A stretch of DNA of 64,000 nt from a virus, in IMG/VR virus record IMGVR_UViG_3300024255_001088, one strand, 5' to 3'. The translations under genes and the position numbers were made by a program. The notes under the pieces were generated by a model. It did not search any database. It worked only from the letters and a program-made list of their open reading frames with translations, and was not told the DNA's origin. Shown here in pieces: positions 3,312-18,581 of the stretch. The number at the start of each line of letters is the position of its first letter. The stretch's first letter is position 1.

Positions 3312-4901
3312 ATGTCAGACGATATTTTTATAAAACATGATAAGAATGGTGGAACTTTTCAGCAACCCTTTTTAGCCAGAGTACCTGCAACCGGTCAACA
3401 ACCGAATATCGCACAAAGAATTTATCAGGTTACTACTCAAGGAACACAACCATTTACATATCAAAGTAGAACACCTACAAATGTTCAGACGCCTAGTAAT
3501 GCACAAAATCCAATAATTGCTCAAGGTATCGCACAAACAACTTATCAACATAGGTCGCCTGCTATATACACAAGTAGGGCGCCTTCAATATACAATATTC
3601 AAACACCTTCTACATATCAACATAGAAGTCCTTTGATATATCAACATAGGTCACCGTTTACTTATCAGTTAAATTATCAACATAGAGAACCTTCTACATA
3701 TCAACATAGAAGTCCTTTGATATATCGTACACCGACTCAGACTAGAACGCCTAGCATCTATACAAATAGACAACCTTTAACATATGAACATAGAAGTCCT
3801 TTTACATATGACCACAGAAGTCCTTTAACATATGACCACAGAAGTCCTTCTCGAACACCTTCTACATATCAAAATAGACAACCTTTAATATATGACCATA
3901 GGTCGCCTTATCAAAGTCCGTTTACTTATCAACATAGAAGTCCGTTGATATATGACCATAGGTCGCCTTCTACATACGATAATAGAGAACCTAGTATCTA
4001 TCAACATAGAAGTCCAGACACTTATCAGCATCAATCGCCGAGTACTTATCAGCATAGGTCACCGTCTCAGAGTCCGTTTACATACGACCATAGGTCACCA
4101 TTTACATATGACCATAGGTCACCGTCTCAGAGTCCGTTTACATACGACCATAGGTCACCATTTACATATGACCATAGGTCGCCTTATCAAAGTCCGTTTA
4201 CATACGACCATAGGTCACCATTTACATATGACCATAGGTCACCATTTACAACTCCAGTAATTGTTAATACACAAAGCTCAAGAAATGCACGAACACCGTT
4301 TATCTTTAGTGAATTACAACAGCAAAACATTGGTACTACGACTGCTCCATATGCTGAAGTTCATTGTGAGATGTCACTTATAGATTCTAGCGGTCGAGAA
4401 CCTTGGATTGTATTATATTGTGTTGAATCAAGTAATGATGTTAATGTATATGTTTATGCTTCAGCTGATGCATTTGGACTTCCTGATGCATATCTGAAAG
4501 AAACAAATACCGGCGGTACTCAAAATGGTCAGGATCAAAACATTGAAGAAAATAGTGATGTTCTTCTATACAAAATAGACGATGCTGGAACTAATTATTC
4601 TGTTGCTAGAAGTACCTCTACTCATGGTACCTTCAATGAGGGTACTCTGAGCGGAAACATTTCTGGAGGCACTGCAATAACTAGCACTTCTTGGACTTAT
4701 GGTACAACTAATGGTACTTTTACCAAGTGGAAATGTGATAATGCTAACTCTGGAGATGTTAAGGAGTACGAGACAACTAATACATTTACATTTACAAGTC
4801 CAGATGCTAATATGGGAACTCATACAATAACGCTAAAAGTGAATCTGTATTACGAAAACGAACAACCAGAAGAAGATGAAGAAGAAAATGACCAGGAGTA
4901 A
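3312..4901 (+). CDS. Zipper chain A1: xTYxHRSP repeat protein with a ~200-aa C-terminal domain
   Basis: Residues 20-329 are Pro-delimited repeats; residues 330-529 are non-repetitive with an acidic tail. Confidence 0.85.
   Translation: MSDDIFIKHDKNGGTFQQPFLARVPATGQQPNIAQRIYQVTTQGTQPFTYQSRTPTNVQTPSNAQNPIIAQGIAQTTYQHRSPAIYTSRAPSIYNIQTPSTYQHRSPLIYQHRSPFTYQLNYQHREPSTYQHRSPLIYRTPTQTRTPSIYTNRQPLTYEHRSPFTYDHRSPLTYDHRSPSRTPSTYQNRQPLIYDHRSPYQSPFTYQHRSPLIYDHRSPSTYDNREPSIYQHRSPDTYQHQSPSTYQHRSPSQSPFTYDHRSPFTYDHRSPSQSPFTYDHRSPFTYDHRSPYQSPFTYDHRSPFTYDHRSPFTTPVIVNTQSSRNARTPFIFSELQQQNIGTTTAPYAEVHCEMSLIDSSGREPWIVLYCVESSNDVNVYVYASADAFGLPDAYLKETNTGGTQNGQDQNIEENSDVLLYKIDDAGTNYSVARSTSTHGTFNEGTLSGNISGGTAITSTSWTYGTTNGTFTKWKCDNANSGDVKEYETTNTFTFTSPDANMGTHTITLKVNLYYENEQPEEDEEENDQE
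3369..4298 (+). repeat. Coding repeat array (HRSP type), 310 codons
   Basis: Units of even length (4-16 aa); near-perfect 60-bp tandem copies at ~4050-4250. Confidence 0.95.
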
Positions 4902-4907
4902 TGTGAT

Positions 4908-6002
4908 ATGCCAGTAGGACAACAACCATCCATATACCAACATCCTATTGCTACACAGGCGCAACAACCAGCGCAACAACCTAATATTAGAAACAAACAA
5001 CACCCTGTTATTAGAAACAAACAGGAAAGTAATCAAGAACCTAATATTAGAAACAAACAACACCCTGTTATTAGAAACAAACAGGAAAGTAATCAAAATC
5101 CTGTTATTAGAAACAAACAAGAACCTAATATTAGAAGCAAACAGGAAAGTAATCAAAATCCTGTTATTAGAAACAAACAACATCCGTTTATTAGAGACAG
5201 ACAAAATCCGGTTGAAAGAGCTCATCAAACTCCTTATACTGCAAATAAACAAAATCCTGTTATTAGAGACCAACAGGTGCCTAGTATAAGAAACGCCCAA
5301 CAGAATGCTCAAGAACCTAATATTAGAAGCGCTCAAAGTCCTTACATCGCAGATGCACAAGCGAATACGCAGAATCCTTTTATTAGAAATCAACAAGAAC
5401 CTAATATTAGAAGCAAACAGGAATCTGTTATAAGAAACAAACAGTCTGCTTATCAAGCGAGTAAACAAACTCCTTCTATAACAAGAACACCAGCGAGTCA
5501 ACAAGAACCTAATATTAGAAGCGCACAAACACCTTCTATTAGACAAGCGCTTAAAAATAAACAACAACCTAATATTAGAAGTCAACAAGAACCTAATATT
5601 AGAAATAAGAGAACACCTTCAGCACATAACGCACAATATCTTAATACTCACAATAGACAAGACCCTGTTATTAGAAGACAACCATTTACATATCCTTTCT
5701 CATATAGAAGTCCTTCTACTTACAGACATCCTACTATTGGTCAACAACCATATATTGCACAAGGTCAGGCTTCTTATAGTTTTCAACAAAACAGACAACA
5801 ACCATATGGATTCAGGTCTCCGTTTATATTTCAAGCAACAGAGAACTCTAATCGACCAATAACGCCAGTTGCAAAAGTGAAAGGAGTCTTTATAAAAGAT
5901 AGTGATGGTGTTGTAAAAGCTTCAACTAAAGTCTTTGTTAAGAAAGATAGTTCAACAGTTGAGAAAATTCATCAGGTACCTGCTTTGCCGTTTGACGAAT
6001 AG
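4908..6002 (+). CDS. Zipper chain B1: xIRxxQxP repeat protein
   Basis: Residues 8-317 are repeats mirroring A1; C-terminal 'VFIKDSDG...VFVKKD' hairpin motifs. Confidence 0.85.
   Translation: MPVGQQPSIYQHPIATQAQQPAQQPNIRNKQHPVIRNKQESNQEPNIRNKQHPVIRNKQESNQNPVIRNKQEPNIRSKQESNQNPVIRNKQHPFIRDRQNPVERAHQTPYTANKQNPVIRDQQVPSIRNAQQNAQEPNIRSAQSPYIADAQANTQNPFIRNQQEPNIRSKQESVIRNKQSAYQASKQTPSITRTPASQQEPNIRSAQTPSIRQALKNKQQPNIRSQQEPNIRNKRTPSAHNAQYLNTHNRQDPVIRRQPFTYPFSYRSPSTYRHPTIGQQPYIAQGQASYSFQQNRQQPYGFRSPFIFQATENSNRPITPVAKVKGVFIKDSDGVVKASTKVFVKKDSSTVEKIHQVPALPFDE
4929..5858 (+). repeat. Coding repeat array (EPNIR type), 310 codons
   Basis: Near-perfect 60-bp tandem copies at ~4975-5180. Confidence 0.95.
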
Positions 6003-6008
6003 GATGAC

Positions 6009-6014
6009 TAAATA
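6009..6014 (+). promoter_or_regulatory. T4-type late promoter core TAAATA
   Basis: TAAATA 5 nt before ATG 6020; same geometry at six other genes; gp55 is encoded in the window. Confidence 0.6.
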
Positions 6015-6019
6015 GTAAT

Positions 6020-6352
6020 ATGGCTATAATCGCAAATTTATTTATCGACCAGGGAACAGACTTTACAGTTGCTGTAGATGTTTCCGATGCAACAGGAAGC
6101 GTTTTAAATCTCTCTGGTTATTCATCAGCAGGACAAATAAGAAAGACATACGGTTCTTCAACCATATCTGCCACATTTGCTACCAGTAATGAGAACGCTA
6201 CAGGTAAAGTGACATTATCTTTGACTGATACTCAAACATCAGCATTAGAACCTGGAAGATATGTGTATGATATGAACATAACAAGTGCTGGTGGTATAAC
6301 AACAAGAGTTGTAGAAGGTCAAGCAATAGTCACACCAGGAGTAACCAGATAA
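6020..6352 (+). CDS. Small virion structural/adaptor protein
   Basis: 'IDQGTDF...GRYVYD...RVVEG...VTPGVT' pattern typical of marine T4-like fibre regions. Confidence 0.6.
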   Translation: MAIIANLFIDQGTDFTVAVDVSDATGSVLNLSGYSSAGQIRKTYGSSTISATFATSNENATGKVTLSLTDTQTSALEPGRYVYDMNITSAGGITTRVVEGQAIVTPGVTR

Positions 6353-6591
6353 TGGCAATAAAAGGCGTAGTATCAAGAGTCGCTACTATAGGTGGCGTAT
6401 TATCCAACACAACAAATCTAAGAGCAAAACAAGTGACTGTTGGTTCTCAATCCGGTACTGATATCAGTGCAAAATCTATCAACGAACTTTCAGATGTAAA
6501 TGCATCGGAAACAGATGATGGTCTTCTCTCATATGACCAGTCAACTGATAAGTGGACAACCACCACTACGATAGACGGCGGAACATTCTAA
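6352..6591 (+). CDS. Small fibre-associated protein ending IDGGTF
   Basis: 'ELSDV...DG.LL.YD...KW' repeat unit and C-terminal IDGGTF. Confidence 0.6.
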   Translation: MAIKGVVSRVATIGGVLSNTTNLRAKQVTVGSQSGTDISAKSINELSDVNASETDDGLLSYDQSTDKWTTTTTIDGGTF

Positions 6592-6733
6592 AACACTAAA
6601 TAATAGTACAAATCAAGGTTGTCGACCAGTGAGACAACGACCCTCATTGTGAGAGGACAGTTTTATATTATGTATTCACGACTCAGGAGTGCTGAGTCAC
6701 AACAATTAATTTAATTTTTATAGGAAAATAAAA

Positions 6734-8368
6734 ATGGCAACAGTAATTCAAATCAAAAGAAGTACAGGCGCATCTGCTCCGGCGATATCAGATTTATCGG
6801 AAGGTGAATTGGCGTATGTACAAGATAGAAGTAATTCTGGTGCATCTGCTAAACTATTCATCGAATCAGTAGATTCAGATAATTCTACAGCCCTAATCCA
6901 TGCGATTGGTGGTAAGTATTATACTGATATGCTTTCTGGTTCTTCAGCAACACCTGCTAACTTTAAAGTTGGTAATGGTTCTACTGCTGGTGCAACTTTA
7001 CAAATCATGGAAGATTCCGATAACGGAACAAACTTCGTTGGTCTTAAAGCTGCAGATACTCTTGGTTCTTCAGTAACCTTCACGCTGCCTACCGCAGACG
7101 GTTCTGCTAACCAAGTTATAGCAACAGATGGTTCAGGAAATCTTTCTTTCGCTTCAACAACTTCAACCCTTGCTGGTGGTAGTGATGTAAACATCACATC
7201 TGCTGCTGATGGTGCGATGTTATTATATGATACAGGAACATCAAAATGGATTGACAATGTAATGTCTGGTGACGCCACTATGGCCGACACAGGTGTTATG
7301 ACAATCGCAAACAACGCTATCAACGCTGCTAAATTAGCAGATGATGCAGTAGATACTGCAGCTATCTTAGATAGTAATGTGACATTAGATAAGATTAACT
7401 TCTTTGTAGACGAAGACAACATGGCTTCTAACTCAGCAGTTAAAGTTCCTTCTCAACAATCAGTAAAAGCATATGTAGACAGTAGTGTAACCGCTTCAGA
7501 CTTAGATATGGCTGGTGACAGTGGAACAGGTGCAGTAGACTTAGACTCTCAGTCACTAACAATCGCTGGTACAGCAAACGAGATTGAAACATCAATGTCA
7601 GGACAAACTTTAACAGTTGGTCTTCCAAACAATGTGACAGTCGCAAATAACTTAACAGTTTCAGGAAACTTAATATCAGACGATATTACAACTGCAACTT
7701 TAACAACATCTGGTAACTTAACAGTCACAGGAAACTTGGCAGTTAATGGTACTACAACAACAGTAAACTCAACAACAGTAAATATCGCTGACCCTGTATT
7801 CGAAATTGGTTCAGATAGTTCAGACGATAACCTAGACAGAGGTATTAAATTTAAGTACAACTCCGGTGGTGCTAAAATTGGTTTCTTTGGTATGGATGAT
7901 ACAGATGGTTCTTTTGTCGCTCTAACAAGTGCAACAGATAGTTCTTCAGTATTCTCTGGTACTGCAATGGCAGGTAAATTCGGTGACTTAACAGCTGCTG
8001 GTTTAGCAATGAGTGGAAGTATTTCTTCTTATGCAGGTTCAGCTCCTACAGATGGTCAAGTCTTAATTGGTGACACATCTTCAGGTTTAATGGACGCTGC
8101 TACTCTTACTGCTGGTGATGGTATTGATATCACTAATGGTGCAGGTGCAATTACGATTGCTGCTGAAGTATCAACTGCTTCTAACTTAGGTTCTGTAATT
8201 GTCGCTGCTGGCGAAGGTATGGATGTAGCGTACTCAGGTGGTACAGCAACCATTACTGGAGAAGATGCAACGACATCTAATAAAGGTATCGCTAGTTTTG
8301 CTAGTGCTAACTTTACAGTATCAAGTGGTGCAGTTACCATTACTGCTATTGACGGTGGAACATTTTAA
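6734..8368 (+). CDS. Tail-fibre-like protein (IQIKRS N-terminus, IDGGTF C-terminus)
   Basis: N-terminal 'IQIKRS...L.EGELA' motif, G/S/T/A-rich repeats, SD AGGA. Confidence 0.7.
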   Translation: MATVIQIKRSTGASAPAISDLSEGELAYVQDRSNSGASAKLFIESVDSDNSTALIHAIGGKYYTDMLSGSSATPANFKVGNGSTAGATLQIMEDSDNGTNFVGLKAADTLGSSVTFTLPTADGSANQVIATDGSGNLSFASTTSTLAGGSDVNITSAADGAMLLYDTGTSKWIDNVMSGDATMADTGVMTIANNAINAAKLADDAVDTAAILDSNVTLDKINFFVDEDNMASNSAVKVPSQQSVKAYVDSSVTASDLDMAGDSGTGAVDLDSQSLTIAGTANEIETSMSGQTLTVGLPNNVTVANNLTVSGNLISDDITTATLTTSGNLTVTGNLAVNGTTTTVNSTTVNIADPVFEIGSDSSDDNLDRGIKFKYNSGGAKIGFFGMDDTDGSFVALTSATDSSSVFSGTAMAGKFGDLTAAGLAMSGSISSYAGSAPTDGQVLIGDTSSGLMDAATLTAGDGIDITNGAGAITIAAEVSTASNLGSVIVAAGEGMDVAYSGGTATITGEDATTSNKGIASFASANFTVSSGAVTITAIDGGTF

Positions 8369-8405
8369 TTAATATTCTTTAACACACTTTCAATAGGAGA
8401 TAGAA

Positions 8406-9230
8406 ATGGCAACAGTTATACAGTTTAAAAGAAGTTCGACTCAGAACGCAGTTCCTAGTACTGGTGATTTATCACTAGGGGAACTGGCTGTCAATACTTA
8501 TCACGGTAGATTTTATACCGAGAAAAATGATGGTTCCGCTGCTGTTGTAGAGATTGGGTCTAACCCAAAAACTCTACAAATTAATGACGCTATAACATTT
8601 CCAACCAGTGATGGTTCAAATGGACAAGTTCTTCAGACCAATGGTTCAGGAATAGTTTCATTTGCAACTTTAGGTGGTTCAGGTGTTTCAATTTACAAAT
8701 ACACCGTTTCGGGTAACCAAACTGTATTTACAGGTAATGATGATGACAGTAATGCATTGTCTTACACTGTAGGTTCAGAACAAGTATTCCTTAATGGTGT
8801 TAAGTTAGTTGATGCTGGTGCAGATTATACTGCAACCAACACCACGACAATCACACTGGAAGAAAATGCAATTGCAGGTGATACAGTAGAAGTAGTAGCA
8901 GTTACCGCTGCTAATTTAGTACAAGGATACTATACAAATAGTGTCTTTAGTGCAACTACTGCTAATCAAGTATTATCAAGCAATGCAGTATCTAATAAAG
9001 GTATTAAATATGTTATTACTGCCACTCATGCGAGTGCAGGAACACATTCAGCCGAAGTATTATTAATCAATGATGGATCCAATGCATATTTCGTTCAATA
9101 TGGCGATATATTCAGTACTGCTTCATTATTTTCGTTGACAGCTGATGTTAATTCAGGAAACATGAGACTCTTATGTACACCTGCTAACACCAACACAACG
9201 GTTAATACTTTCCAAATAAGACAATCATAG
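8406..9230 (+). CDS. Fibre adaptor/structural protein
   Basis: 'IQFKRS...L.LGELA' N-terminus; C-terminal 'KY.I...H..EVL...DG...QYG' domain. Confidence 0.65.
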   Translation: MATVIQFKRSSTQNAVPSTGDLSLGELAVNTYHGRFYTEKNDGSAAVVEIGSNPKTLQINDAITFPTSDGSNGQVLQTNGSGIVSFATLGGSGVSIYKYTVSGNQTVFTGNDDDSNALSYTVGSEQVFLNGVKLVDAGADYTATNTTTITLEENAIAGDTVEVVAVTAANLVQGYYTNSVFSATTANQVLSSNAVSNKGIKYVITATHASAGTHSAEVLLINDGSNAYFVQYGDIFSTASLFSLTADVNSGNMRLLCTPANTNTTVNTFQIRQS

Positions 9231-9241
9231 GGGGATAGAAA

Positions 9242-9652
9242 ATGGCTATAACAAGAAGTTTTAAACTCGCTGAATTCATCCGTCACATGTCTTATAACTC
9301 TAGTACAGATAGAATAGAAACAGGTAAAGAGATTCAAGACGAGAATACAACAACAGGTGGTATCACTAAAACTGCTACTACTGAATTCTCACTTGATACC
9401 TTTGCTCATGCTACCTATAGAGCTGCGAGATATATCGTGGCGATGTCAGAGGGAAGTAATTTCCACTCAACAGAGATAATGTTAGTACATGACGGTTCTA
9501 CCGTGACATTAACACAATACGGAACGCTTAAAGATACTAACTTAGCGACATTTGATGCAGACATTAATGGAGACAATGTTAGACTACTATGTACACCGGC
9601 GGGTACAAACTCAACGGTTATTAAGTTTAACAGAACTACAGTCGAAGCTTAA
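9242..9652 (+). CDS. Fibre adaptor/structural protein
   Basis: Same 'A(R/K)Y...EI...HDG...QYG' domain as its neighbours. Confidence 0.65.
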   Translation: MAITRSFKLAEFIRHMSYNSSTDRIETGKEIQDENTTTGGITKTATTEFSLDTFAHATYRAARYIVAMSEGSNFHSTEIMLVHDGSTVTLTQYGTLKDTNLATFDADINGDNVRLLCTPAGTNSTVIKFNRTTVEA

Positions 9653-9670
9653 ATTCAGTAATATATTATG

Positions 9671-9701
9671 AAAAGGGGGACTTTAGAGTCCCCTTTTTTT
9701 T
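9671..9701 (+). terminator. Rho-independent terminator
   Basis: GGGGAC-TTTAGA-GTCCCC followed by T8. Confidence 0.85.
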
Positions 9702-9730
9702 GTCGGTAGATAAATTACATAAATAACACC

Positions 9731-10549
9731 ATGGCATCGAAAGTAAAATTTTTCGCAGATTTAGGTGTACAGTCAAAACTAAACACTCAAGTAGATGGCG
9801 ATTTAACAGTTGCAGGTGACTTAACGGTTACAGGGACAACTTTAACAGTCAATTCTACAACGACATCTGTTGGCGACTCAATGTTTGAGTTCGCAAATCA
9901 AAATACTAGTTCAGACCTAATCGATATTGGTTTCTACGGAAACTACAACGATGGTTTATCAGATGGTGGTGCATCTGAGTACACAGGTCTATTCAGAGAT
10001 GCATCGGATTCTACATGGACATTATTTGATGGTTTAGAGGTAGAACCAGGAACTACAGTTAATACTGGTGGTTCGGGTTACGCACTTGCTGATTTAAAAC
10101 TTGGAGATTTAACTTCTTCAACACTAACAGCAGGTGGATTATTATATCCAACTTCAGATGGTTCTAACAACCAAGTCTTAATGACTAATGGTTCTGGTAC
10201 TTTATCTTTCCAAGATGCTGGTTCAGGACTTACTTCTGGTACAGTGACTACAACATCGACTACTATCACAAATTTAGATACAATGGCGATTGCAAGTTAT
10301 AGAGGTGCAAAGTATACTATAACAGTCTCAGACGCTACTGGTGGTGATTATGAGATAACAGAGGTTCATGTAATACACGATGGTACTAACGCAAGTATAA
10401 CGCAGTTTGGTACAGTCCTACAAGGTACATCTAGTGAGTTAGGAAGTTTCTCAGTAGATATCAACTCAGGCAATCTCAGATTGAGAGTCACTTCTGCCAG
10501 TACAAACTCCACAGTTTATAATTTTAAGCGAATAGACCACGCTGTATAA
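9731..10549 (+). CDS. Fibre adaptor/structural protein
   Basis: 'GDLTV.G' repeats plus C-terminal 'AKY...EV...HDG...QFG' domain. Confidence 0.65.
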   Translation: MASKVKFFADLGVQSKLNTQVDGDLTVAGDLTVTGTTLTVNSTTTSVGDSMFEFANQNTSSDLIDIGFYGNYNDGLSDGGASEYTGLFRDASDSTWTLFDGLEVEPGTTVNTGGSGYALADLKLGDLTSSTLTAGGLLYPTSDGSNNQVLMTNGSGTLSFQDAGSGLTSGTVTTTSTTITNLDTMAIASYRGAKYTITVSDATGGDYEITEVHVIHDGTNASITQFGTVLQGTSSELGSFSVDINSGNLRLRVTSASTNSTVYNFKRIDHAV

Positions 10550-10658
10550 AATAGTTATAACTAATTGAATTTTATTAGGGAAAATGAGGTCTTTAGAACG
10601 ACACCAATCTATAAATAATAGTATTAATTACTAATACTTTTACAAAAGGACATAAGAA

Positions 10659-10877
10659 ATGGCAACAACACAAACATTTGTAATCGAGTATGGGTTATCA
10701 GTAGGGTCATCTGAAGTCATAAATTCAAGTGGAAAAATCGTACCAGGTGCGTTATCCAATGTGGATTCAGACGACATAACAGAAGGCTCAACTAATCTGT
10801 ATATGACTACTTCAAGATTCAACTCTGCATTTGATACGAGACTATCTAACGCCACTATTGATGGAGGCACTATCTAA
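10659..10877 (+). CDS. Small fibre-associated protein ending IDGGTI
   Basis: 'FVIEYGLSVG' N-terminus, 'DDITEGSTNLY' module, SD AAGGA. Confidence 0.6.
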   Translation: MATTQTFVIEYGLSVGSSEVINSSGKIVPGALSNVDSDDITEGSTNLYMTTSRFNSAFDTRLSNATIDGGTI

Positions 10878-13354
10878 TGACAAGTAAAAATTTCATAATC
10901 AAAAATGGTCTAACAGTAGGAACTACTGAGGTCATAACATCTGCTGGTTTAATTACTGGCGCAGCTGTCAACGAGGCAGTTGACGATAGAGTTGATTCTC
11001 TATTAACTGCTGGAACAGGTATCTCATTAACATATGATGACACTGCTGGCACACTAACAATTAACGGACAACAAGGTGACATCACAGGTGTGAACGCTGG
11101 TGCTGGTTTAACTGGTACTGCAAGTTCAGGTGATGCAACACTAAACATTGGTGCTGGTACAGGTATTACTGTAAATGCAGACGATATTGCAGTCAACTTC
11201 AAAGATGAAGATGACATGTCTTCAAACTCAGCAACTCATGCCGCTACTCAACAATCAATTAAAGCATATGTTGACGCTCAAGTTGCAACAGTTCCGACTG
11301 GAGACATAACAAGTGTAGTCTCAGGAACTGGTCTAACAGGTGGCGGAACAAGTGGCGATGTCACTGTAAATGTTGTTGCAGGTAATGGTCTTATCGCAAA
11401 CGCAGACGATGTGACAATCGATACTTCGATAACAGCAGATTTAACTACTGCACAAACTTTAACTAACAAAACATTAACGACTCCAATTCTAAATGGAACA
11501 ATTTCGGGTACTGCTGTCTTAGACCAAGACAACATGTCTTCTAATAGTAATACTCATCTTGCAACACAACAATCAATCAAGGCATATGTAGACTCTTCAG
11601 TTGCAGGTAAAGATAATACAGACGAGATTACAGAAGGTTCAAGTAACCTATACTTCACAAATGAAAGAGTAGACGATAGAGTAGATGCTCTACTAACTTC
11701 TGGTGTCAATGTCGCTATGACATATGACGATGCAAATGGAAGTTTAGAGATTAGAGTACCTTATGAGAATATACAAGATACAGTTGGCGCTCAGATTGCA
11801 ACCAATGGTTCACATACAGGTCTTACTGCAACATATGATGATGCAGGTGACGGCGCTGTAGACCTTGCAGTATCAACATCACATGTTAGGGGTTTAATAT
11901 CTGCTGGTGGTGACTTATCATACAACAGTTCAACAGGTGTAATTAGTTTCACAAACGATGCTGGTGATATCTCTTCAGTAGTTGCTGGAACTGGTATGAC
12001 TGGTGGGGGAACTTCTGGTGATGTGACAGTCAATGTTATTGGGGGAGACGGTATTACTGCAAACGCAAATGATATCGCATTGTCTTCTTCAGTCGCTGGT
12101 GATGGTCTTTCATTCTCAAGTGGTGTTCTTGCAGTAGGGGTTGACGATAGTTCTATAGAAACAAGTTCAGATACATTACAAGTGAAAGCACTTGGTGTCA
12201 CAAATGCCATGTTGGCAGGTTCAATTGCTGAAGGCAAACTTGCAGGTGGTATTTCAAACGCAAAACTTGCTAACTCATCCATAACAATAGACGGAAGTGC
12301 TGTTTCATTGGGTGGTTCAATAACTACTACAAATACACAACTTACACAAGAACAAGTCGAAGACTTTGTTGGTGGTATGTTAGATGGTACCGAAACAGGT
12401 ATCTCTGTATCATACGATGATACAAATGGTAATCTTGACTTTGTTATTGGCGCTGACGACATTACTAACGATATGTTGGCAGGGTCAATTAATCAATCCA
12501 AACTTGCAGGTTCAATTGCAAACGCAAAACTTGCTAATAGTACGATAACAATTGATGGACAATCAGTTGCATTGGGTGGTTCAGTCACAACAACTAACAC
12601 TCAATTATCAACAGAGAATGTACAAGATATCGCTGGGGCGATGTTCTCAAGTAATACTGAAAGTGGTATTACTGCAACATATCAAGATGCAGATGGTACA
12701 ATCGATTTGAATGTTAATGACCCAACAATATCCTTGACAGGCGATGTGACAGGTTCTGCTACAATGACCAATTTAGGTAATGTTAGTATCTCTACTACAG
12801 TCGCTGCTAACTCAGTCGCACTTGGAACAGATACAACAGGTAACTATGTCGCAGGTGTAAGTGCAGGAACTGGTGTCTCAGTAAGTGGTTCTGGAGAAGG
12901 TGCAACATCAACAGTATCTATTGGACAGGCAGTTGGAACATCAAGTAATGTTCAATTTGGAAACTTAGTTCTCACAGGCGACTTAACAGTTAATGGTTCA
13001 ACAGTAACCAACTCTTCAACAAATACAACTATCGAAGACCAACTTATAGAGTTAGGGACAGGTAATAGTGGTTCTGCTTCAGGCGATGCAGGTTTTGTTA
13101 TCGAAAGAGGAAGTGATGCCAATGTATTTATTGGTTGGGATGAAAGTGCTGATGCAGTCACATTCGGAACAGGAACATTTACAGGTGCATCAACAGGTGA
13201 TTTAACGATTACACCAAGTGCAGTAAACACTGGCGCATTGACAATTACAAATGCAACAAACAGTGGTGGCACAGCGAGAAACATACATCAGTCAACATCA
13301 GCTCCAGGCGGAAGTGATGGCGCAGTTGGCGATTTATGGGTTCTTTACTCTTAA
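10877..13354 (+). CDS. Tail-fibre-like protein 2 (825 aa)
   Basis: 'GDITSV.AG.GLTGGG.SGDVT' and 'E.V.D.V...TY.D..G' repeats; C-terminal 'STSAPGGSDGAVGDLWV'. Confidence 0.75.
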   Translation: MTSKNFIIKNGLTVGTTEVITSAGLITGAAVNEAVDDRVDSLLTAGTGISLTYDDTAGTLTINGQQGDITGVNAGAGLTGTASSGDATLNIGAGTGITVNADDIAVNFKDEDDMSSNSATHAATQQSIKAYVDAQVATVPTGDITSVVSGTGLTGGGTSGDVTVNVVAGNGLIANADDVTIDTSITADLTTAQTLTNKTLTTPILNGTISGTAVLDQDNMSSNSNTHLATQQSIKAYVDSSVAGKDNTDEITEGSSNLYFTNERVDDRVDALLTSGVNVAMTYDDANGSLEIRVPYENIQDTVGAQIATNGSHTGLTATYDDAGDGAVDLAVSTSHVRGLISAGGDLSYNSSTGVISFTNDAGDISSVVAGTGMTGGGTSGDVTVNVIGGDGITANANDIALSSSVAGDGLSFSSGVLAVGVDDSSIETSSDTLQVKALGVTNAMLAGSIAEGKLAGGISNAKLANSSITIDGSAVSLGGSITTTNTQLTQEQVEDFVGGMLDGTETGISVSYDDTNGNLDFVIGADDITNDMLAGSINQSKLAGSIANAKLANSTITIDGQSVALGGSVTTTNTQLSTENVQDIAGAMFSSNTESGITATYQDADGTIDLNVNDPTISLTGDVTGSATMTNLGNVSISTTVAANSVALGTDTTGNYVAGVSAGTGVSVSGSGEGATSTVSIGQAVGTSSNVQFGNLVLTGDLTVNGSTVTNSSTNTTIEDQLIELGTGNSGSASGDAGFVIERGSDANVFIGWDESADAVTFGTGTFTGASTGDLTITPSAVNTGALTITNATNSGGTARNIHQSTSAPGGSDGAVGDLWVLYS

Positions 13355-13386
13355 TAAATAGAATAGTATTTTAAGGACTATATAAT

Positions 13387-15489
13387 ATGGCGACAGGCTC
13401 ACAAAAGGTAAAAACACCAACAGGTTGGAATAGTACCCGAGGTGCATGGGTAAAAACAGACTCAGGCACATGGAAAGCTGCTGACCAGATTTATGTAAAA
13501 ACACCTACAGGTTGGAACAATGCTTCTGGACAACAGAGTGTTCAACAACCTTACCCTTATATCGCAAACGCACAAGAACCCAATATAAGAAACAAACAGA
13601 ATCCTTATCCTTATATTGCAAACGCACAAGAACCTAATATAAGAAACAAACAGAATCCTTATCCTTATATTGCTAATGCACAAGAACCTAATATTAGAGA
13701 TAGAAGACAACCTGCGATTTATCAAAATCCAGTAAATGCACAAGAACCTAATATTAGAAATCAACAAGAACCTAATATTAGGTCACAACAAGAACCTAAT
13801 ATTAGAGATGCTAGACAACCTGGTACATATCAACATAGGTCACCTAGTACATATAGAGACCCTCGTTCATATCAGAATCCTTCTACATATAATCATAGAA
13901 GTCCGTTGACATATCAACATAGAAGTCCGTTGACATATCAACATAGGTCACCATTTATATATCAACATAGGTCACCTTCTACATATAGTAATAGACAACC
14001 TAGTACATATCAACATAGGTCGCCTTATAGAAGTCCGTTTATCTATCAACATAGAAGTCCGTTGACATATGACCACAGGTCTCCTTTAATATATCGTAAT
14101 CCGTTTACTTATAATCACAGGTCTCCTTTAACATATGACCATAGGTCACCTTATCAAAGTCCATTTACTTACGACCATAGAAGTCCGTTGACATATCAAC
14201 ATAGGTCACCTTATAGAAGTCCGTTCACTTATCAACATAGAAGTCCGTTGACTTATCAACATCAGTCACCGAGTATTTACCAGAATCCAAGTACCTATCA
14301 GAACAGACAACCTAGTACTTATCAGCATCAGTCGCCAAGTATTTACCAGAATCCTAGTACTTACGACAATAGACAACCTAGTAGTTATCAGCATCAGTCG
14401 CCAAGTATTTACCAGAATCCGAGTACTTACAACAATAGACAACCTGGTACATATGACCATAGGTCACCTTATAGAAGTCCGTTCACTTATCAACATAGGT
14501 CACCATTTACATATGACCATAGGTCGCCGTTTACATATCGTAATCCGTTTACTTATAACCATAGGTCGCCTACTACATATAATCACAGGTCACCATATAC
14601 ATATGACCATAGGTCGCCTAGTACATACAATCACAGGTCACCTAGTACATATCAGGCAAGACAACCTAACGCTGCTAGAAACCCATTTAGTGCAAGACAA
14701 CCGTTCACTTATCAGGCAAGAGAACCTAATACATATAATCATAGGTCGCCTAGTACATACCAAGCAAGACAACCGAATAGTGCTAGACAACCATTTAGTG
14801 CGAGACAACCGTTCACTTATCAGGCAAGACAACCAAACTCTGCTAGAAACCCATTTAGTGGAAGAAATCCTTTCACTTATCAGGCAAGGTCGCCTTCGAT
14901 TGCAAACAATAGGTCTCCTGCAACTTATTCATTCAGAATGCCGTTTACCTTTGGTGGTGGAGGAGGAGGCGGAGGTTGCTTCGCTCCAGGTTCAATGATA
15001 TGGTTAGGCGATGGTTCACATGCACCTATCGAGTCATGTGTTGTTGGTCAATGGGTCATGTCTTGGAACGAAAGTACTAAATTACTTGAACCTAAGAGAA
15101 TACAACAAATTAATCCTCAGCCAATCAGTTCTATATGGGATATAACATTCTCAGATGGTAGAATTCTACAGATGACTGATACTCACCCATTGATGTTACC
15201 AAATGGTGAATGGGGTGCATTTGATATTGAGAAATCAGTAAAAGAACATTGGTGGATGGAAGATATAGAAACACATGAACTTAAAGTTGGAGATAGTATA
15301 TTCAGTATGTTAGATGGCATAATGTTTGATAGACAAGATGAAATGGGACTAGAGATAGTATCAATAGAAGAACACTCAGAAATGGAAGTTTATAACTTAA
15401 CTGGTATTGAAGATAACTCGAACTTCTTTGTTAATGGCATGTTAGCACATAACTTTAACAATCTACCTATTCCTGTAGGACAAAAATAA
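13387..15489 (+). CDS. Zipper chain A2: repeat protein with Gly8 linker and C-terminal Hint domain
   Basis: Three 'VKT..(.)G.W'-type motifs, 464-aa repeat array, G8, then a Hint domain. Confidence 0.85.
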   Translation: MATGSQKVKTPTGWNSTRGAWVKTDSGTWKAADQIYVKTPTGWNNASGQQSVQQPYPYIANAQEPNIRNKQNPYPYIANAQEPNIRNKQNPYPYIANAQEPNIRDRRQPAIYQNPVNAQEPNIRNQQEPNIRSQQEPNIRDARQPGTYQHRSPSTYRDPRSYQNPSTYNHRSPLTYQHRSPLTYQHRSPFIYQHRSPSTYSNRQPSTYQHRSPYRSPFIYQHRSPLTYDHRSPLIYRNPFTYNHRSPLTYDHRSPYQSPFTYDHRSPLTYQHRSPYRSPFTYQHRSPLTYQHQSPSIYQNPSTYQNRQPSTYQHQSPSIYQNPSTYDNRQPSSYQHQSPSIYQNPSTYNNRQPGTYDHRSPYRSPFTYQHRSPFTYDHRSPFTYRNPFTYNHRSPTTYNHRSPYTYDHRSPSTYNHRSPSTYQARQPNAARNPFSARQPFTYQAREPNTYNHRSPSTYQARQPNSARQPFSARQPFTYQARQPNSARNPFSGRNPFTYQARSPSIANNRSPATYSFRMPFTFGGGGGGGGCFAPGSMIWLGDGSHAPIESCVVGQWVMSWNESTKLLEPKRIQQINPQPISSIWDITFSDGRILQMTDTHPLMLPNGEWGAFDIEKSVKEHWWMEDIETHELKVGDSIFSMLDGIMFDRQDEMGLEIVSIEEHSEMEVYNLTGIEDNSNFFVNGMLAHNFNNLPIPVGQK
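13552..14943 (+). repeat. Coding repeat array (short EPNIR part, then long HRSP part), 464 codons
   Basis: 63 units of 4/6/8/10 aa. Confidence 0.95.
14977..15453 (+). other. Hint (intein-like/BIL) autoprocessing domain
   Basis: Block A CFAPGS, block B TDTHP, block F VYNL, block G NFFVNGMLAHN; +1 residue is Phe; no endonuclease. Confidence 0.9.
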
Positions 15490-15529
15490 TGAAGATGATA
15501 ATTAAATTAAGAGTAGGGAGTAAAATCTA

Positions 15530-16996
15530 ATGCCACAGCAACCTCTAATTGGACTTGCTCAATCGCCAAGTACTTCTAATGTGCAAACTCCGTATATTGC
15601 TAATGGCCAGCAACCTTATACTGGTCAACAACCATATACATATCAGTCGCCATATATTGCATCTGGTCAGACTCCTTATACTGGTCAGACTCCTTATACT
15701 TACCAGAGTCCTTATATTGCGAATAATCAACAACCCAATATTAGAAGTTATCAAAGTCCGTATATTGCGAATGGTCAGACTCCTTATACTGGTCAACAAC
15801 CTTATACTTTCCAGAGTCCATACATTGCGAATAATCAAGAACCTAATATAAGGAACAATCAGGAACCCAATATTAGAAGCATACAAGAACCTAATATTAG
15901 AAACCAACAAGAACCTAATATTAGAGATGCTCAGTCACCTAGTAATGCTCAGCAACCTACAATTAAGAACAAACAAGAACCTAATATTCGTTCAGCGCAA
16001 CAGTCAGCACAAGAACCAAATATCAGAAACTTTCAGACTCCTTACATTGCTAATGCACAAGGGGCTAGTGCAGCTCAAGAACCTAATATCAGAAATGCAC
16101 AAACACCTTATATTGCAAACAGACAAAACACTGCAAATGCACAAGAACCTAATATTAGAAACAGACAAACACCTTATATTGCAAACAGACAAACCACTTC
16201 AAATGCACAAGAACCAAACATAAGGTCACAACAAGAACCTAATATTCGTTCAGCGCAAGCGTCAGCACAAGAACCAAACATAAGGTCACAACAAGAACCT
16301 AATATTAGAAACAAACAGCAGAGTGCTCAACAACCTACTATTAAGAACCAACAGGAACCTAATATTAGAGATGCTCAGTCACCTAGTAATGCTCAGCAAC
16401 CTAATATTAGAAGTCAACAAGAACCTAATATTCGTTCAGGTCAAACGGTAACGCAAGAACCTAATATTAGAGACAGACAAACACCTTATATTGCTAATGC
16501 ACAAAATCCGTTTATTAGAAATGCTCAAGAACCAAACATAAGGTCACAACAAGAACCTAATATTAGAGCTCAACAAGAACCTAATATTAGAAACAGACAA
16601 ACAACAGCGAGCTATCAGAATCCTGTAAATGCTCAGAATCCGTTTATAAGAAATAATCAGACTCCATTTACATATGACCATAGAAGTCCGTTGACATATG
16701 ACCACAGGTCTCCTTTAACATATGACCATAGAAGTCCGTTTACTTACAGAAATCCTGCAAATAGTCAGACACCTCTTACATATCAACATCAGAGTCCTTC
16801 TACATATGCTAGACAAGGTCAAACACCAACGACTTATCAACATAGAAGTCCTTCTACATATGCTAGACAAGGTCAGACACCAACGACTTATCAACATAGG
16901 TCACCTAGTACATATGCTAGACAAGGTCAAACACCTGTTATCCGTTGGGATGGTTCATTGTCACAAACATGGCCAGGAACACCTGTTAATTCTTAA
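15530..16996 (+). CDS. Zipper chain B2: repeat protein (long EPNIR/YIAN part, then short HRSP part)
   Basis: 5 aa + 464-aa array + 19 aa; SD GGGAG. Confidence 0.85.
   Translation: MPQQPLIGLAQSPSTSNVQTPYIANGQQPYTGQQPYTYQSPYIASGQTPYTGQTPYTYQSPYIANNQQPNIRSYQSPYIANGQTPYTGQQPYTFQSPYIANNQEPNIRNNQEPNIRSIQEPNIRNQQEPNIRDAQSPSNAQQPTIKNKQEPNIRSAQQSAQEPNIRNFQTPYIANAQGASAAQEPNIRNAQTPYIANRQNTANAQEPNIRNRQTPYIANRQTTSNAQEPNIRSQQEPNIRSAQASAQEPNIRSQQEPNIRNKQQSAQQPTIKNQQEPNIRDAQSPSNAQQPNIRSQQEPNIRSGQTVTQEPNIRDRQTPYIANAQNPFIRNAQEPNIRSQQEPNIRAQQEPNIRNRQTTASYQNPVNAQNPFIRNNQTPFTYDHRSPLTYDHRSPLTYDHRSPFTYRNPANSQTPLTYQHQSPSTYARQGQTPTTYQHRSPSTYARQGQTPTTYQHRSPSTYARQGQTPVIRWDGSLSQTWPGTPVNS
15545..16936 (+). repeat. Coding repeat array mirroring 13552-14943, 464 codons
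   Basis: 63 units whose lengths are the reverse of those in A2. Confidence 0.95.
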
Positions 16997-17033: not shown

Positions 17034-18581
17034 ATGAGCGTAAAATCAGACTCACTCGAGCACACAAAGGAACTTCTCAAAGATTGGGATCCAACAGATA
17101 AGAACACACATGTTCAGTTGGGTTCTTTTGATGTATCAAAAGATTATAAAGAAACAGAAGCATATAAATCTTTAAAATGGGTGACAGCGAACAAAACAGG
17201 AAAATTAAAACAGGTCAAATGGGGTGATATGACTAAGTTAATCAAGGAACAAAAGTTTCTTGGTTGGAACAAACTACAATCTCATTCATGGGCATATCAT
17301 TACTTTCTTTCTAAAGGATACACTGCACCACCCGAAAATCCAAAACCAGGAATTGCAGGTATGGATTTTAAAAATTCAAATGATGAATATCAAAAGATAG
17401 AAGAATTCACAGATACTAAGTTAAGCGAACAACAAGATTCTAGTCTTAATGCTGTATATTATCATGGTGCAAAGGCACATTGGTTAGTCGATAGTATCAG
17501 AAAAGAAGGTCTATGGAATGCAATTCAAGGCACTGTATCTACAGCAGGTATGAACTCCAGAGATGAACGAATGTATCAGTTATCTATACATCCAGGTTCT
17601 GTTCGTTCAGGTGTTTTCGAAACTATGAATGACCCAGACTTAGATTTATGGATATGGGATAACCACGATGCTATACCTCTTCCAGAAACACCTATAGATG
17701 AAATGATTGACGAAATGAAGTCGCAACTTGTAGAAAGAAATGCAGACCACTACTCAATGTCGTTTTCATTCACTCGTGGATATTTAGAAATACATAGTGA
17801 CTTATTGAAGATGAACTTCAGAGGAGATGTGACAGACTTCAATAAAAAAGTAAATAAACTTTCTGCTGGCAAACCCTTGACAATCTATGTCGGATATGAT
17901 AGTAGACACAAAGACATTGCAGAACTAAGTGCTAAATGTCTTAAGAGTAGTATATTATTTGGAGCAGGTCATGGTGATGTACATGATATATTAGGAGATT
18001 GGACTCCTGAGATAAAGTTTCTTGACATATCAAAGATTCCAGAGTATAATAGAGAGTATGCAGCTCAATCAACAGAGTTCACATATAGTAGATTCTTAAT
18101 TCCTTACTTAGAAAACTATGAAGGATTTAGTATTTTTATTGATGATGATATACTATTCAATGAAAGTATCTTACCAATGTTCTACTATTTAGATTTAGAT
18201 GATGCAGTTGCATGTGTTCAGTATGATTTTGATACTTATGCTGAAACAAAATTTAACGGTGAAAAGAATGTATCTTATCCTAAAAAACTTTGGTCATCAT
18301 TAATGATATTTAATAATGGTCACGAAGACTGTAAGAAACTTACGCCAGAAGTTATCAATACTGAAAGTGGTAAATATCTACATCAATTTGAATGGACAGA
18401 TAAGATATCAGAAATACCAGAATGGTATGTTATAACTGAGGGGCATGATACGCAAGAAGAAAAGTGGCGTGCTTGTGCTATACATTATACTAGAGGTGGT
18501 CCTTGGATTGAAGGCATGGATACTTCTGAAATAGAACACCTAAATATGTATGAAAGATTTAAAAATAAACATCAAAACTAG
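17034..18581 (+). CDS. Two-domain protein with C-terminal GT-A glycosyltransferase
   Basis: 'IYVGYDSR', 'STEFTYSRFLIPYL', DxD ('IDDD'), 'YPKKLWSSLMIFN', 'HYTRGGPW'. N-terminal domain not identified. Confidence 0.75.
   Translation: MSVKSDSLEHTKELLKDWDPTDKNTHVQLGSFDVSKDYKETEAYKSLKWVTANKTGKLKQVKWGDMTKLIKEQKFLGWNKLQSHSWAYHYFLSKGYTAPPENPKPGIAGMDFKNSNDEYQKIEEFTDTKLSEQQDSSLNAVYYHGAKAHWLVDSIRKEGLWNAIQGTVSTAGMNSRDERMYQLSIHPGSVRSGVFETMNDPDLDLWIWDNHDAIPLPETPIDEMIDEMKSQLVERNADHYSMSFSFTRGYLEIHSDLLKMNFRGDVTDFNKKVNKLSAGKPLTIYVGYDSRHKDIAELSAKCLKSSILFGAGHGDVHDILGDWTPEIKFLDISKIPEYNREYAAQSTEFTYSRFLIPYLENYEGFSIFIDDDILFNESILPMFYYLDLDDAVACVQYDFDTYAETKFNGEKNVSYPKKLWSSLMIFNNGHEDCKKLTPEVINTESGKYLHQFEWTDKISEIPEWYVITEGHDTQEEKWRACAIHYTRGGPWIEGMDTSEIEHLNMYERFKNKHQN

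What the first reader, a model, noticed from the sequence alone, without database searches (positions are those of the whole stretch)
3369..16936. A cross-strand amino-acid pairing code shared by both zippers
Seen: in pair 2, 30 of 30 octamers with His at position 5 face an octamer with Arg/Lys at position 3, and 9 of 9 xTYx(A/N)RxP octamers face YIA. Most Tyr hexamers face small-residue hexamers (SIYQNP/SNAQEP, NSARNP/YTYQSP, FTYRNP/SNAQQP), and Y(R/Q)SP faces (A/T)Q(E/Q)P. The rule still holds where the chains swap roles near the base (A2 carries NIR units, B2 carries HRSP units), and it holds in pair 1. All unit lengths are even, as expected for beta-strand alternation. Inference: a small alphabet of complementary peptide units fixes register and partner choice, much like base pairing, and could be programmable.
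Basis: partly seen in the sequence, partly recalled or inferred. Interest (0 to 1): 0.88.

Follow-up and report, generated by a model that had tools for sequence, protein, structure and literature searches.

The report
Mirror-coded two-protein phage fibre zipper
Two pairs of neighbouring genes in an uncultured marine T4-like phage encode proline-punctuated repeat proteins that complement each other, unit by unit and residue by residue, when one is read backwards; dozens of related phages keep this rule, which points to a natural sequence-coded antiparallel protein duplex that I could not find described.

Summary
One gap-free antiparallel alignment puts 56 of 59 B2 prolines on A2 unit boundaries and 31 of 39 for B1 on A1. 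Unit-order shuffles reach at most 34 and 21.

In pair 2, 30 of 30 His-5 octamers face an Arg/Lys-3 octamer, and 9 of 9 xTYx(A/N)RxP octamers face YIA.

The rule holds in 32 distinct homologous pairs from marine viral contigs:
- Zipped lengths range from 258 to 512 residues.
- The two unit types often swap chains but almost always face each other (539 Tyr-type/NIR-type octamer blocks against 6 like-with-like).
- Covariation lies on odd positions in a Pro-opposite-Pro register.
- Relatives 96% identical to the window show compensated unit switches.
- A pair-score matrix trained only on diverged homologues picks the window's true partner and register (560 and 237 bits). Wrong partners, self-pairing and parallel alignments score 61 bits or less.

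An antisense-DNA origin is excluded. The structure predictions gave no answer, so physical binding, beta conformation and stoichiometry remain inferred.

I found no sequence relative in the PDB, no family name and no paper. Other agents of this scan have reported the same kind of gene pair in related phage genomes. I judge it real, apparently undescribed and of high interest.

The parts
3312..4901 (+). Gene A1 (529 aa), the outgoing chain of pair 1. Residues 17-334 (nt 3360-4313) are the zipped repeat array, mostly xTYxHRSP units. Residues 335-529 (nt 4314-4898) are a non-repeat tip domain.
   Evidence: The end of the tip domain is weakly similar (E 4e-9 to 3e-5) to repeat modules of proteins that carry bacterial Ig/cadherin-like adhesin domains. 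Only one homologous cluster was found.
4908..6002 (+). Gene B1 (364 aa), the returning chain of pair 1. Residues 3-320 (nt 4914-5867) are zipped, mostly (N/V)IRxxQxP units. Residues 321-364 (nt 5868-5999) form a small C-terminal base piece that faces the A1 N-terminus.
   Evidence: An AGGAG ribosome-binding site adjoins the A1 stop codon.
13387..15489 (+). Gene A2 (700 aa). Residues 1-55 (nt 13387-13551) are a conserved base. Residues 56-522 (nt 13552-14952) are the zipped array. Gly8 is at nt 14953-14976. A Hint/intein-like domain runs from Cys531 to Asn689 (nt 14977-15453), followed by an 11-residue tail.
   Evidence: (PF14890 E 2.5e-7, 31.1 bits, below the 35.8-bit cut-off; PF01079 E 2.8e-4).
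15530..16996 (+). Gene B2 (488 aa). Residues 3-469 (nt 15536-16936) are the zipped array, antiparallel to A2 56-522. Residues 470-488 (nt 16937-16993) are a conserved RWDG...WP clasp that faces the WNNASG motif of A2.
   Evidence: It has its own AGGGAG ribosome-binding site.
17034..18581 (+). Gene for a 515-aa protein with a GT8-like glycosyltransferase domain. It is a conserved neighbour of pair-2-type pairs; any functional link is inferred only.
   Evidence: PF01501 at 24.5 bits against a 24.3-bit cut-off; phrog_28018 E 8e-44. It lies 20-160 nt downstream of B in every type-2 locus fetched and in no type-1 locus. It also follows the pair in L075, where the gene order is B then A.
923..3301 (+). 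Fibre-like structural protein gene upstream of pair 1, a paralogue of 10877-13354.
   Evidence: phrog_697 hit; 40% identity over 210 aa with the protein of 10877-13354.
10877..13354 (+). Fibre-like structural protein gene directly upstream of pair 2.

Best explanation
A and B are two chains of one fibre shaft in the host-recognition cluster of a T4-like marine myophage. They lie antiparallel. A runs from the virion-proximal base to the tip, and B runs from the tip back to the base.

Each Pro-terminated unit of one chain lies strand-on-strand against an equal-length unit of the other, with Pro opposite Pro. Even unit lengths keep a two-residue (beta) alternation. The conserved even positions (T2, R6, P8 in one unit type; I2, Q6, P8 in the other) form a constant face. 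The odd positions form a variable, mutually fitted face that carries the code:
- H5/S7 with R3/N1
- (N/A)5/Q7 with A3/Y1
- H5/T7 with A3/S1
- F1 with A5/Q7, L1 with Q5/E7
- FTY with AQE in octamers and hexamers
- Y(R/Q)SP with AQ(E/Q)P
- YP with TP

The aperiodic order of unit lengths and letters works as a barcode. It fixes one register over 310-464 residues and keeps the two pairs of one phage from cross-pairing.

Shown here: mirror register, complementarity, covariation, compensated changes and out-of-sample discrimination. Inferred: physical binding, beta conformation, stoichiometry (possibly three duplexes round a threefold axis) and the role as a fibre.
For: - Mirror register in the window against shuffles.
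- Unit pairing table.
- Every complete related locus has two adjacent repeat genes.
- In most of 37 distinct pairs a single antiparallel offset explains most prolines, for example 64/70, 61/65, 41/43, 51/54 and 45/47, while shuffle maxima across the pairs are 18-34.
- Zipped length varies from 258 to 512 residues with almost no odd blocks, so unit gains and losses are matched in both genes.
- Class table over 32 pairs: Tyr-type/NIR-type 539 blocks, like-with-like 6; hexamers 385 complementary against 1. Complementary classes make up 74% of blocks at the true position and 10-33% at block offsets of 1-4 either way.
- Unit types swap chains and stay complementary.
- Mutual information on 307 distinct octamer pairs peaks at T5-N3, T7-N1, T7-N3, T5-N1, T1-N5 and T1-N7 (z 22-61). 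All are odd with odd, with position sums of 6, 8 or 10. Hexamers peak at T5-N1.
- Window against L001 (96% identical): FTYQAREP/YIANGQTP becomes FTYDHRSP/TIKNGQTP, and FTYQARSP/YIANGQQP becomes FTYQHRTP/SIANGQQP. Changes co-localise in facing units, with odds ratio 8.3 (p 0.0016) for pair 2 and 8.4 (p 0.0012) for pair 1.
- A log-odds matrix trained on pairs at most 61% identical scores A2xB2 560 bits and A1xB1 237 bits at the true offsets. With Pro columns masked the scores are 445 and 205 bits. Non-cognate, self and parallel alignments score 61 bits or less.
- Context: tail-fibre and baseplate PHROG hits nearby, upstream of the gp13, gp14, gp15, gp17, gp18 and gp20 homologues.
- Tip domains vary on a conserved shaft.
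- The pairing survives a reversed gene order in L075.
Against: - There is no direct evidence that the proteins bind or are in the virion.
- Counts across loci are not phylogenetically independent, and repeats within a gene share ancestry.
- Some database pairs are imperfect. L010, L011 and L013 have a 17-residue stretch where 16 is expected, a one-residue bulge. L028 and L054 differ from L019 by an unmatched 44 or 88 residues in one chain, which may be assembly collapse of tandem repeats.
- The sequence gives no clearly hydrophobic face, so how a thin duplex would be stabilised is open.
- No fused single-chain form longer than 854 aa was found, which is weak evidence.
Confidence: 0.78

Rival explanations
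1. The pairing code is the same but the geometry differs. The two chains wind round each other as an intertwined antiparallel beta-helix (solenoid) with Pro at the corners, so that each unit is one side of a prism. This would resemble the triple beta-helices of T4 gp5C (8 residues per side) and gp12 (6 per side), not an extended ribbon.
For: - Unit lengths of 8 and 6 equal the side lengths reported for gp5C and gp12 (PMC3004832).
- Many arrays have three-unit super-repeats of 18-22 residues, such as 2+8+8, 8+8+4, 8+8+6 and 8+6+6, a typical coil length for beta-solenoids (my own knowledge).
- Complementarity is raised at block offsets of plus or minus 3 (33% against 10-16%).
Against: - Length matching is strict only with the one mirror partner. 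At offsets of plus or minus 3 only 53% of units have equal length.
- Conditional mutual information shows no special signal at plus or minus 3 compared with 1, 2 or 4.
- Runs of five or six plain octamers and six-unit super-repeats also occur.
- No antiparallel hetero beta-helix is known to me.
Confidence: 0.15
2. A and B do not touch each other. Each lies along a third, aperiodic template (another fibre protein or a polysaccharide) in opposite directions, and the mirror pattern reflects that template.
For: A fibre-like gene precedes each pair. Binding of A to B has not been shown.
Against: - Unit types swap chains freely while staying complementary.
- Residue covariation follows an antiparallel strand-pair geometry between A and B.
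- Zipped lengths vary twofold among pairs with similar neighbours.
Confidence: 0.04
3. The mirror pattern is a genetic or technical artefact. B would be an antisense reading of an inverted copy of A, or the pattern would come from chance in low-complexity sequence or from mis-assembly.
For: Both genes are highly repetitive, and repeats yield long ORFs in several frames.
Against: - blastn of A against the reverse complement of B finds nothing better than E 1.9, and identity in the protein-implied register is 20-35%.
- Shuffles never approach the observed register.
- The pattern recurs in dozens of independent contigs with different unit orders.
- Substitutions between 96%-identical relatives include many synonymous changes (63 synonymous against 39 non-synonymous in A2).
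Confidence: 0.01

Closest known systems
Needle domain of the T4 long tail fibre tip, gp37
   Same: It is a thin beta-structured phage fibre in which strands run out to the tip and back, so outgoing and returning strands pair antiparallel. Histidines recur along the shaft; in gp37 they bind seven iron ions (PMC6957217). The six-stranded, three-hairpin description is from my own knowledge.
   Different: - In gp37 both strands belong to one chain of a homotrimer, and the needle is short.
- Here the outgoing and returning strands are separate genes, 310-464 residues long, with Pro-terminated units and a unit alphabet.
- There is one His per unit (YxH, not HxH).
- There is no sequence similarity to any PDB chain outside the Hint domain.
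Triple-stranded beta-helix of T4 gp5 C-terminal domain and gp12
   Same: Both are phage fibre or needle folds built from short repeats, with 8 (gp5C) or 6 (gp12) residues per strand and a kink residue at each corner (PMC3004832).
   Different: - Those are homotrimers of parallel chains with a VxGxxxxx repeat.
- Here there are two different chains, mirror order (antiparallel), Pro rather than Gly, mixed unit lengths and partner-specific letters.
Heterodimeric coiled-coil zippers (e/g charge code) and collagen heterotrimer register codes
   Same: A small set of position-specific residue pairings decides partner and register in a long fibrous assembly (my own knowledge).
   Different: - Those rest on heptad alpha-helices or Gly-X-Y triple helices.
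- Here Pro every 2-8 residues and even periods exclude both.
- The code here works at two levels: unit length and residue letters.
Streptococcal antigen I/II (SpaP/SspB) stalk
   Same: Two different repeat regions run antiparallel and wrap into one long stalk. This lead came from earlier notes of this scan (e1-5796538) and from my own knowledge.
   Different: - There an Ala-rich alpha-helix pairs with a Pro-rich PPII helix of the same chain.
- Here there are two chains, no helix-compatible sequence, and Pro only at unit ends.
- I did not test this comparison.

Membership tests
Triple-stranded beta-helix (T4 gp5C type) | Octapeptide repeat with the VxGxxxxx signature | tested here: not met
   An 8-residue period is present, but the consensus units are xTYxHRSP and NIRxxQxP, with no Val or Gly signature.
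Triple-stranded beta-helix (T4 gp5C type) | Three identical chains running parallel | tested here: not met
   The register exists only between two different chains read in opposite directions. Parallel and self alignments are at noise level.
T4 gp37 needle | Sequence relationship to gp37 and HxH metal-binding motifs | tested here: not met
   No PDB chain matches B2 at E up to 1, and A2 matches only through its Hint domain. Units carry YxH, not HxH.
T4 gp37 needle | Out-and-back antiparallel strands forming a trimeric six-stranded needle | not testable with these tools
   Antiparallel pairing is inferred from covariation. Stoichiometry is unknown, and the predictions gave no usable model.
Intein / Hint domain (A2 C-terminus only) | Profile match plus Cys1, TxxH and terminal His-Asn | tested here: inconclusive
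   PF14890 scores E 2.5e-7 but 31.1 bits, below the 35.8-bit cut-off. Cys531 after Gly8, a TDTH motif and a terminal HN are visible in the translation.
Intein / Hint domain (A2 C-terminus only) | Nucleophile (Cys/Ser/Thr) at +1 after His-Asn, needed for splicing | tested here: not met
   The +1 residue is Phe in the window and Gly, Ala or Phe in homologues. Cleavage or transfer is therefore expected rather than canonical splicing.
Collagen / PPII triple helix | Gly every third residue, with a period that is a multiple of 3 | tested here: not met
   Units are 8, 6, 4 or 2 residues long and have no Gly periodicity.
Coiled-coil zipper | Heptad repeat in helix-compatible sequence | tested here: not met
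   Pro ends every unit of 2-8 residues.

The most novel reading that the evidence does not exclude
These phages carry a natural, orthogonal peptide pairing alphabet for beta structure. It has at least three octamer letter pairs plus hexamer, tetramer and dipeptide pairs. Like nucleic-acid hybridisation, it specifies partner, polarity and register of a protein duplex hundreds of residues long. It could therefore be read, predicted and rewritten to build hetero-specific protein fibres of chosen length.
Probability: 0.45. Interest if true: 0.93.

Novelty: categorically new. Interest (0 to 1): 0.88.

Why it matters
If the two chains really zip as the sequences imply, this is a kind of protein-protein recognition not described before. 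It would be a modular, position-by-position code between two separate beta-type chains, kept over hundreds of residues and evolving by compensated unit changes in two genes.

It would matter in three ways:
- It would explain how very long repetitive phage fibres assemble in one register, and how two such fibres in one virion avoid cross-pairing.
- It poses a clear evolutionary problem: matched insertions and duplications at mirror positions in two separate genes.
- It would give protein designers a ready natural alphabet, with dozens of natural 'messages' as a training set, for orthogonal heteromeric beta fibres. That is an area where designed codes exist mainly for coiled coils.

The family is large (at least 400 protein clusters in marine metagenomes) and wholly unannotated.

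Tried and rejected
- **AlphaFold2 on a natural hairpin.** A1 and B1 are in the same frame, so I read through the A1 TAA stop and folded P0125 as a single sequence. Mean pLDDT was 35.5, so the model is unusable.
- **Complex prediction.** I sent A2 1-145 with B2 380-488, each with an 18-row alignment. The verdict was 'no answer' (ipSAE 0.00; controls not run). This is no evidence either way.
- **Antisense or inverted-repeat DNA origin.** Rejected.
- **Fused single-chain forms longer than 854 aa.** None found, which is weak evidence. The '905-aa open frame' reported for G001 was a read-through of the stop; the genes are separate there too.
- **PDB sequence search.** Nothing for the repeats.
- **Pfam and PHROGs.** Nothing for the repeat proteins.
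- **Cultured phage records.** No match to the non-repeat base of A2. tblastn with the whole A2 is masked by the low-complexity filter.
- **Literature.** Six full-text searches found no description.
- **Second-neighbour contact at block offsets of plus or minus 3, to tell ribbon from solenoid.** Conditional mutual information is raised at all offsets with no peak, so the test is inconclusive.
- **A1 tip domain.** Only one homologous cluster, weak Ig/cadherin-like similarity, and not enough depth to fold.
- **Cellular genomes.** One hit, on a 121-kb contig binned as a Sphingobacteriales MAG that looks viral.
Full report
**What is there**

The window is part of a T4-like marine myophage. Homologues of gp13, gp14, gp15, terminase, sheath and portal follow at 21.7-31 kb. 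The nearest cultured relatives by DNA are Pelagibacter phage HTVC008M and cyanomyophages, at about 77% identity in head genes. The finding lies in the variable region upstream of gp13/gp14. In pelagimyophages this region is called the host recognition cluster (PMC7029224). Nearby ORFs hit tail-fibre, baseplate and 'structural protein' PHROGs.

Four + strand ORFs matter:
- A1, 3312-4901
- B1, 4908-6002
- A2, 13387-15489
- B2, 15530-16996

All four are arrays of Pro-terminated units of 8, 6, 4 or 2 residues. B chains sometimes lack a Pro, which gives units of 12 (8+4) and 14 (8+6).

**Check of the observation**

A single gap-free antiparallel alignment places 56 of 59 B2 prolines on A2 unit boundaries, and 31 of 39 for B1 on A1. 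In 5000 shuffles of unit order the maxima were 34 and 21. Parallel alignments, cross pairs (A1-B2, A2-B1) and like-with-like pairs (A1-A2, B1-B2) stay at 15-32.

Cutting both chains at the shared boundaries gives the unit table.
- 30 of 30 His-5 octamers face Arg/Lys-3.
- 9 of 9 xTYx(A/N)RxP octamers face YIA.
- 4 of 4 Y(R/Q)SP tetramers face (A/T)Q(E/Q)P.
- 13 of 15 hexamer pairs are aromatic against small.
- YP faces TP.
- Where A2 carries NIR/YIA units near the base, B2 carries HRSP units.
- Pair 1 follows the same rule (18 of 19; the exception is an NIR-type unit with an incidental His).

Blocks are of even length except for scraps at the two ends.

**Is it a genetic artefact?**

No. The reverse complement of B shows no similarity to A (best E 1.9), and identity in the implied register is 20-35%. 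Between the window and a 96%-identical relative, many differing codons are synonymous (63 synonymous against 39 non-synonymous in A2), which fits real coding sequence.

**Do homologous pairs keep the rule?**

A scan of viral contigs with B2 returned 73 loci, and every complete one has two adjacent repeat genes. There are 37 distinct pairs.

- In most of them one antiparallel offset explains most prolines, for example 64/70, 61/65, 41/43, 51/54 and 45/47. Shuffle maxima across the pairs are 18-34.
- Zipped lengths range from 258 to 512 residues with almost no odd blocks, so unit gains and losses are matched in the two genes.
- In many homologues the Tyr-type and NIR-type units alternate between chains, yet they still face each other.
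- Over 32 pairs there are 539 Tyr-type/NIR-type octamer blocks against 6 like-with-like, and 385 complementary hexamer blocks against 1.
- Complementary classes make up 74% of blocks at the true position and 10-33% at neighbouring block offsets.
- One locus found in a genome collection has the order B then A and still obeys the rule.

Exceptions exist. L010, L011 and L013 carry a 17-residue stretch in place of 16. L028 and L054 differ from L019 by 44 or 88 unmatched residues, which may be assembly collapse.

**Residue-level code**

On 307 distinct Tyr-type/NIR-type octamer pairs, mutual information peaks at T5-N3, T7-N1, T7-N3, T5-N1, T1-N5 and T1-N7, with z of 22-61 against partner shuffles. 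All of these are odd with odd, and their position sums are 6, 8 or 10. The even positions (T2, R6, P8; I2, Q6, P8) are nearly invariant. Hexamers peak at T5-N1, a sum of 6.

This is the pattern expected for directly opposed and diagonal neighbours on one face of an antiparallel strand pair with Pro opposite Pro.

The letters read out are:
- H5/S7 with R3/N1
- (N/A)5/Q7 with A3/Y1
- H5/T7 with A3(E3)/S1
- F1 with A5/Q7, L1 with Q5/E7
- an FTY-against-AQE half shared by octamers and hexamers

**Compensated change at short range**

Two class switches separate the window from L001, and each is mirrored in the partner:
- FTYQAREP/YIANGQTP becomes FTYDHRSP/TIKNGQTP.
- FTYQARSP/YIANGQQP becomes FTYQHRTP/SIANGQQP.

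Substitutions co-localise in facing units, with odds ratio 8.3 (p 0.0016). Pair 1 against its homologue in virus record G001 gives odds ratio 8.4 (p 0.0012). There a triplicated FTYDHRSP segment has become SIYQHQSP, and the facing VIRNKQES units have become FERNQQES. Several other locus pairs give p values of 0.004-0.04, and more diverged ones are saturated.

**Partner and register choice**

I trained a log-odds matrix of facing residues only on pairs at most 61% identical to the window. Results:

| Alignment | Score at best offset |
|---|---|
| A2 x B2 (true offset) | 560 bits; next best 256 bits, one octamer away |
| A1 x B1 (true offset) | 237 bits; next best below 0 |
| A2 x B2, Pro columns masked | 445 bits |
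| A1 x B1, Pro columns masked | 205 bits |
| A2 x B1, A1 x B2, parallel alignments | about 4 bits or below, mostly negative |
| A x A | up to 15 bits |
| B2 x B2 | 61 bits |

So the code learnt elsewhere predicts who pairs with whom here, and where.

**Architecture and likely function**

The A N-terminus and B C-terminus meet at a conserved 'base'. In type 2 pairs a WNNASG motif faces RWDG...WP. In type 1 pairs an IFIK-like motif faces VKGVFIKD.

The A C-terminus and B N-terminus meet at the 'tip'. Tips differ widely among homologues:
- a Hint/intein-like domain, as in A2
- several unrelated beta-rich domains; the end of the A1 tip is weakly like Ig/cadherin adhesin modules
- nothing at all, where A ends in GGG..EP and B starts with MPIG

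Ribosome-binding sites sit beside or just after the A stop codon. In many homologues the A stop overlaps the B start, which suggests coupled, equimolar synthesis.

I read this as a fibre shaft with an exchangeable distal end. If the chains are fully extended, 464 and 310 zipped residues would span roughly 155 and 105 nm (inference).

**Geometry**

An extended two-chain ribbon, perhaps bundled in threes like the T4 gp37 needle, is the simplest fit. An intertwined antiparallel beta-helix with Pro at the corners cannot be excluded. Units of 8 and 6 match the gp5C and gp12 helices (PMC3004832), and three-unit super-repeats of 18-22 residues are common. However, length matching is strict only with the mirror partner, and no second-neighbour signal stands out.

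Structure prediction did not help. The single-sequence AlphaFold2 run had a mean pLDDT of 35. The complex job gave no answer, which I do not count either way.

**Comparison with what is known**

- No PDB sequence relative for the repeats.
- No Pfam or PHROG family for the repeat proteins.
- No name on any of the 120 best-scoring protein clusters listed, out of at least 400.
- No cultured-phage match to the non-repeat base of A2.
- No paper in six full-text searches.

The closest analogues are the gp37 needle (out-and-back strands, but one chain), triple beta-helices (short-period repeats, but parallel homotrimers), coiled-coil and collagen register codes (a pairing code, but other folds) and the antigen I/II stalk (antiparallel repeats, but one chain with helix and PPII). 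The finding fails defining features of each family that I could test.

**Earlier notes of this scan**

Other agents reported the same kind of gene pair in several related phage genomes and reached the same reading. I treated those notes as leads only. This report adds the Pro-opposite-Pro odd-face register, the third letter pair (HRTP with SIA), the compensated switches between 96%-identical relatives, the out-of-sample partner and register test, and the invariant GT8-like neighbour of type-2 pairs.

**Verdict**

Binding and structure remain to be shown. I rate it apparently undescribed and of high interest.

Noticed in passing
window 17034-18581; L001-L073 and L075: A 515-aa protein with a GT8-like glycosyltransferase domain lies 20-160 nt downstream of B in every type-2 locus fetched and in no type-1 locus. 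It also follows the pair in L075, where the order is B then A (48% identity). GT8 includes glycogenin, which glucosylates tyrosine (my own knowledge), and the fibre units are Tyr-rich, so the fibre may be glycosylated.
   Followed up: partly
window 14953-15489: The A2 array ends in Gly8 followed by a Hint/intein-like domain with Cys1, a TDTH motif and a terminal His-Asn, but with Phe at +1 (Gly, Ala or Phe in homologues). In the mirror register this thioester site lies beside the B2 N-terminus (MPQQP). Cleavage, or transfer to another group, seems more likely than splicing.
   Followed up: partly
L019, L029, L032, L039-L044 (3' end of A, 5' end of B): In several homologous pairs A has no tip domain and ends in a Gly-rich tail closing with EP, such as FGGGNPPNVMEP or GGGGEEP, while B starts with MPIG. 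The fibre tip would then be only the two chain ends.
   Followed up: no
window 4893-4910: A1 and B1 are in the same frame, separated by TAA plus two codons, and an AGGAG site adjoins the stop. The homologue in virus record G001 has the same layout, but L068 does not, so read-through is probably not the point.
   Followed up: partly
window 923-3301 and 10877-13354: Each pair is preceded by a paralogous fibre-like gene (40% identity over 210 aa, phrog_697). This fits a repeated three-gene cassette.
   Followed up: partly
L010, L011, L013 (B gene); L028, L054 compared with L019: These are exceptions to perfect matching. Three related contigs have a 10+7 stretch in place of 8+8, a one-residue bulge. 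Two contigs have 44 or 88 residues (one or two six-unit super-repeats) missing from only one chain, which may be real variation or assembly collapse.
   Followed up: partly
window 13552-14952 and homologous arrays: Units often come in three-unit super-repeats of 18, 20 or 22 residues (2+8+8, 8+8+4, 8+8+6, 8+6+6; also 44 residues as six units). The cause is unknown; it could be the twist period of a ribbon, the coil of a solenoid, or duplication history.
   Followed up: partly
window 4050-4290 with 4980-5200; L074: Triplicated segments sit at mirror positions in A1 and B1. In the close relative G001 both have changed together (FTYDHRSP to SIYQHQSP in A, VIRNKQES to FERNQQES in B). This looks like concerted evolution within each gene, coupled between the two genes.
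   Followed up: partly
window 20683-21393: A 2OG-Fe(II) oxygenase gene (PF13759, E 1.9e-18) lies in the same late module. Such enzymes include prolyl hydroxylases, so hydroxylation of the many prolines is conceivable but untested.
   Followed up: no
window 15530-15900 (B2 N-terminal third): B2 scores 61 bits against itself antiparallel in its YIA/YTY region, far below the cognate 560 bits. This is weak partial self-complementarity.
   Followed up: no
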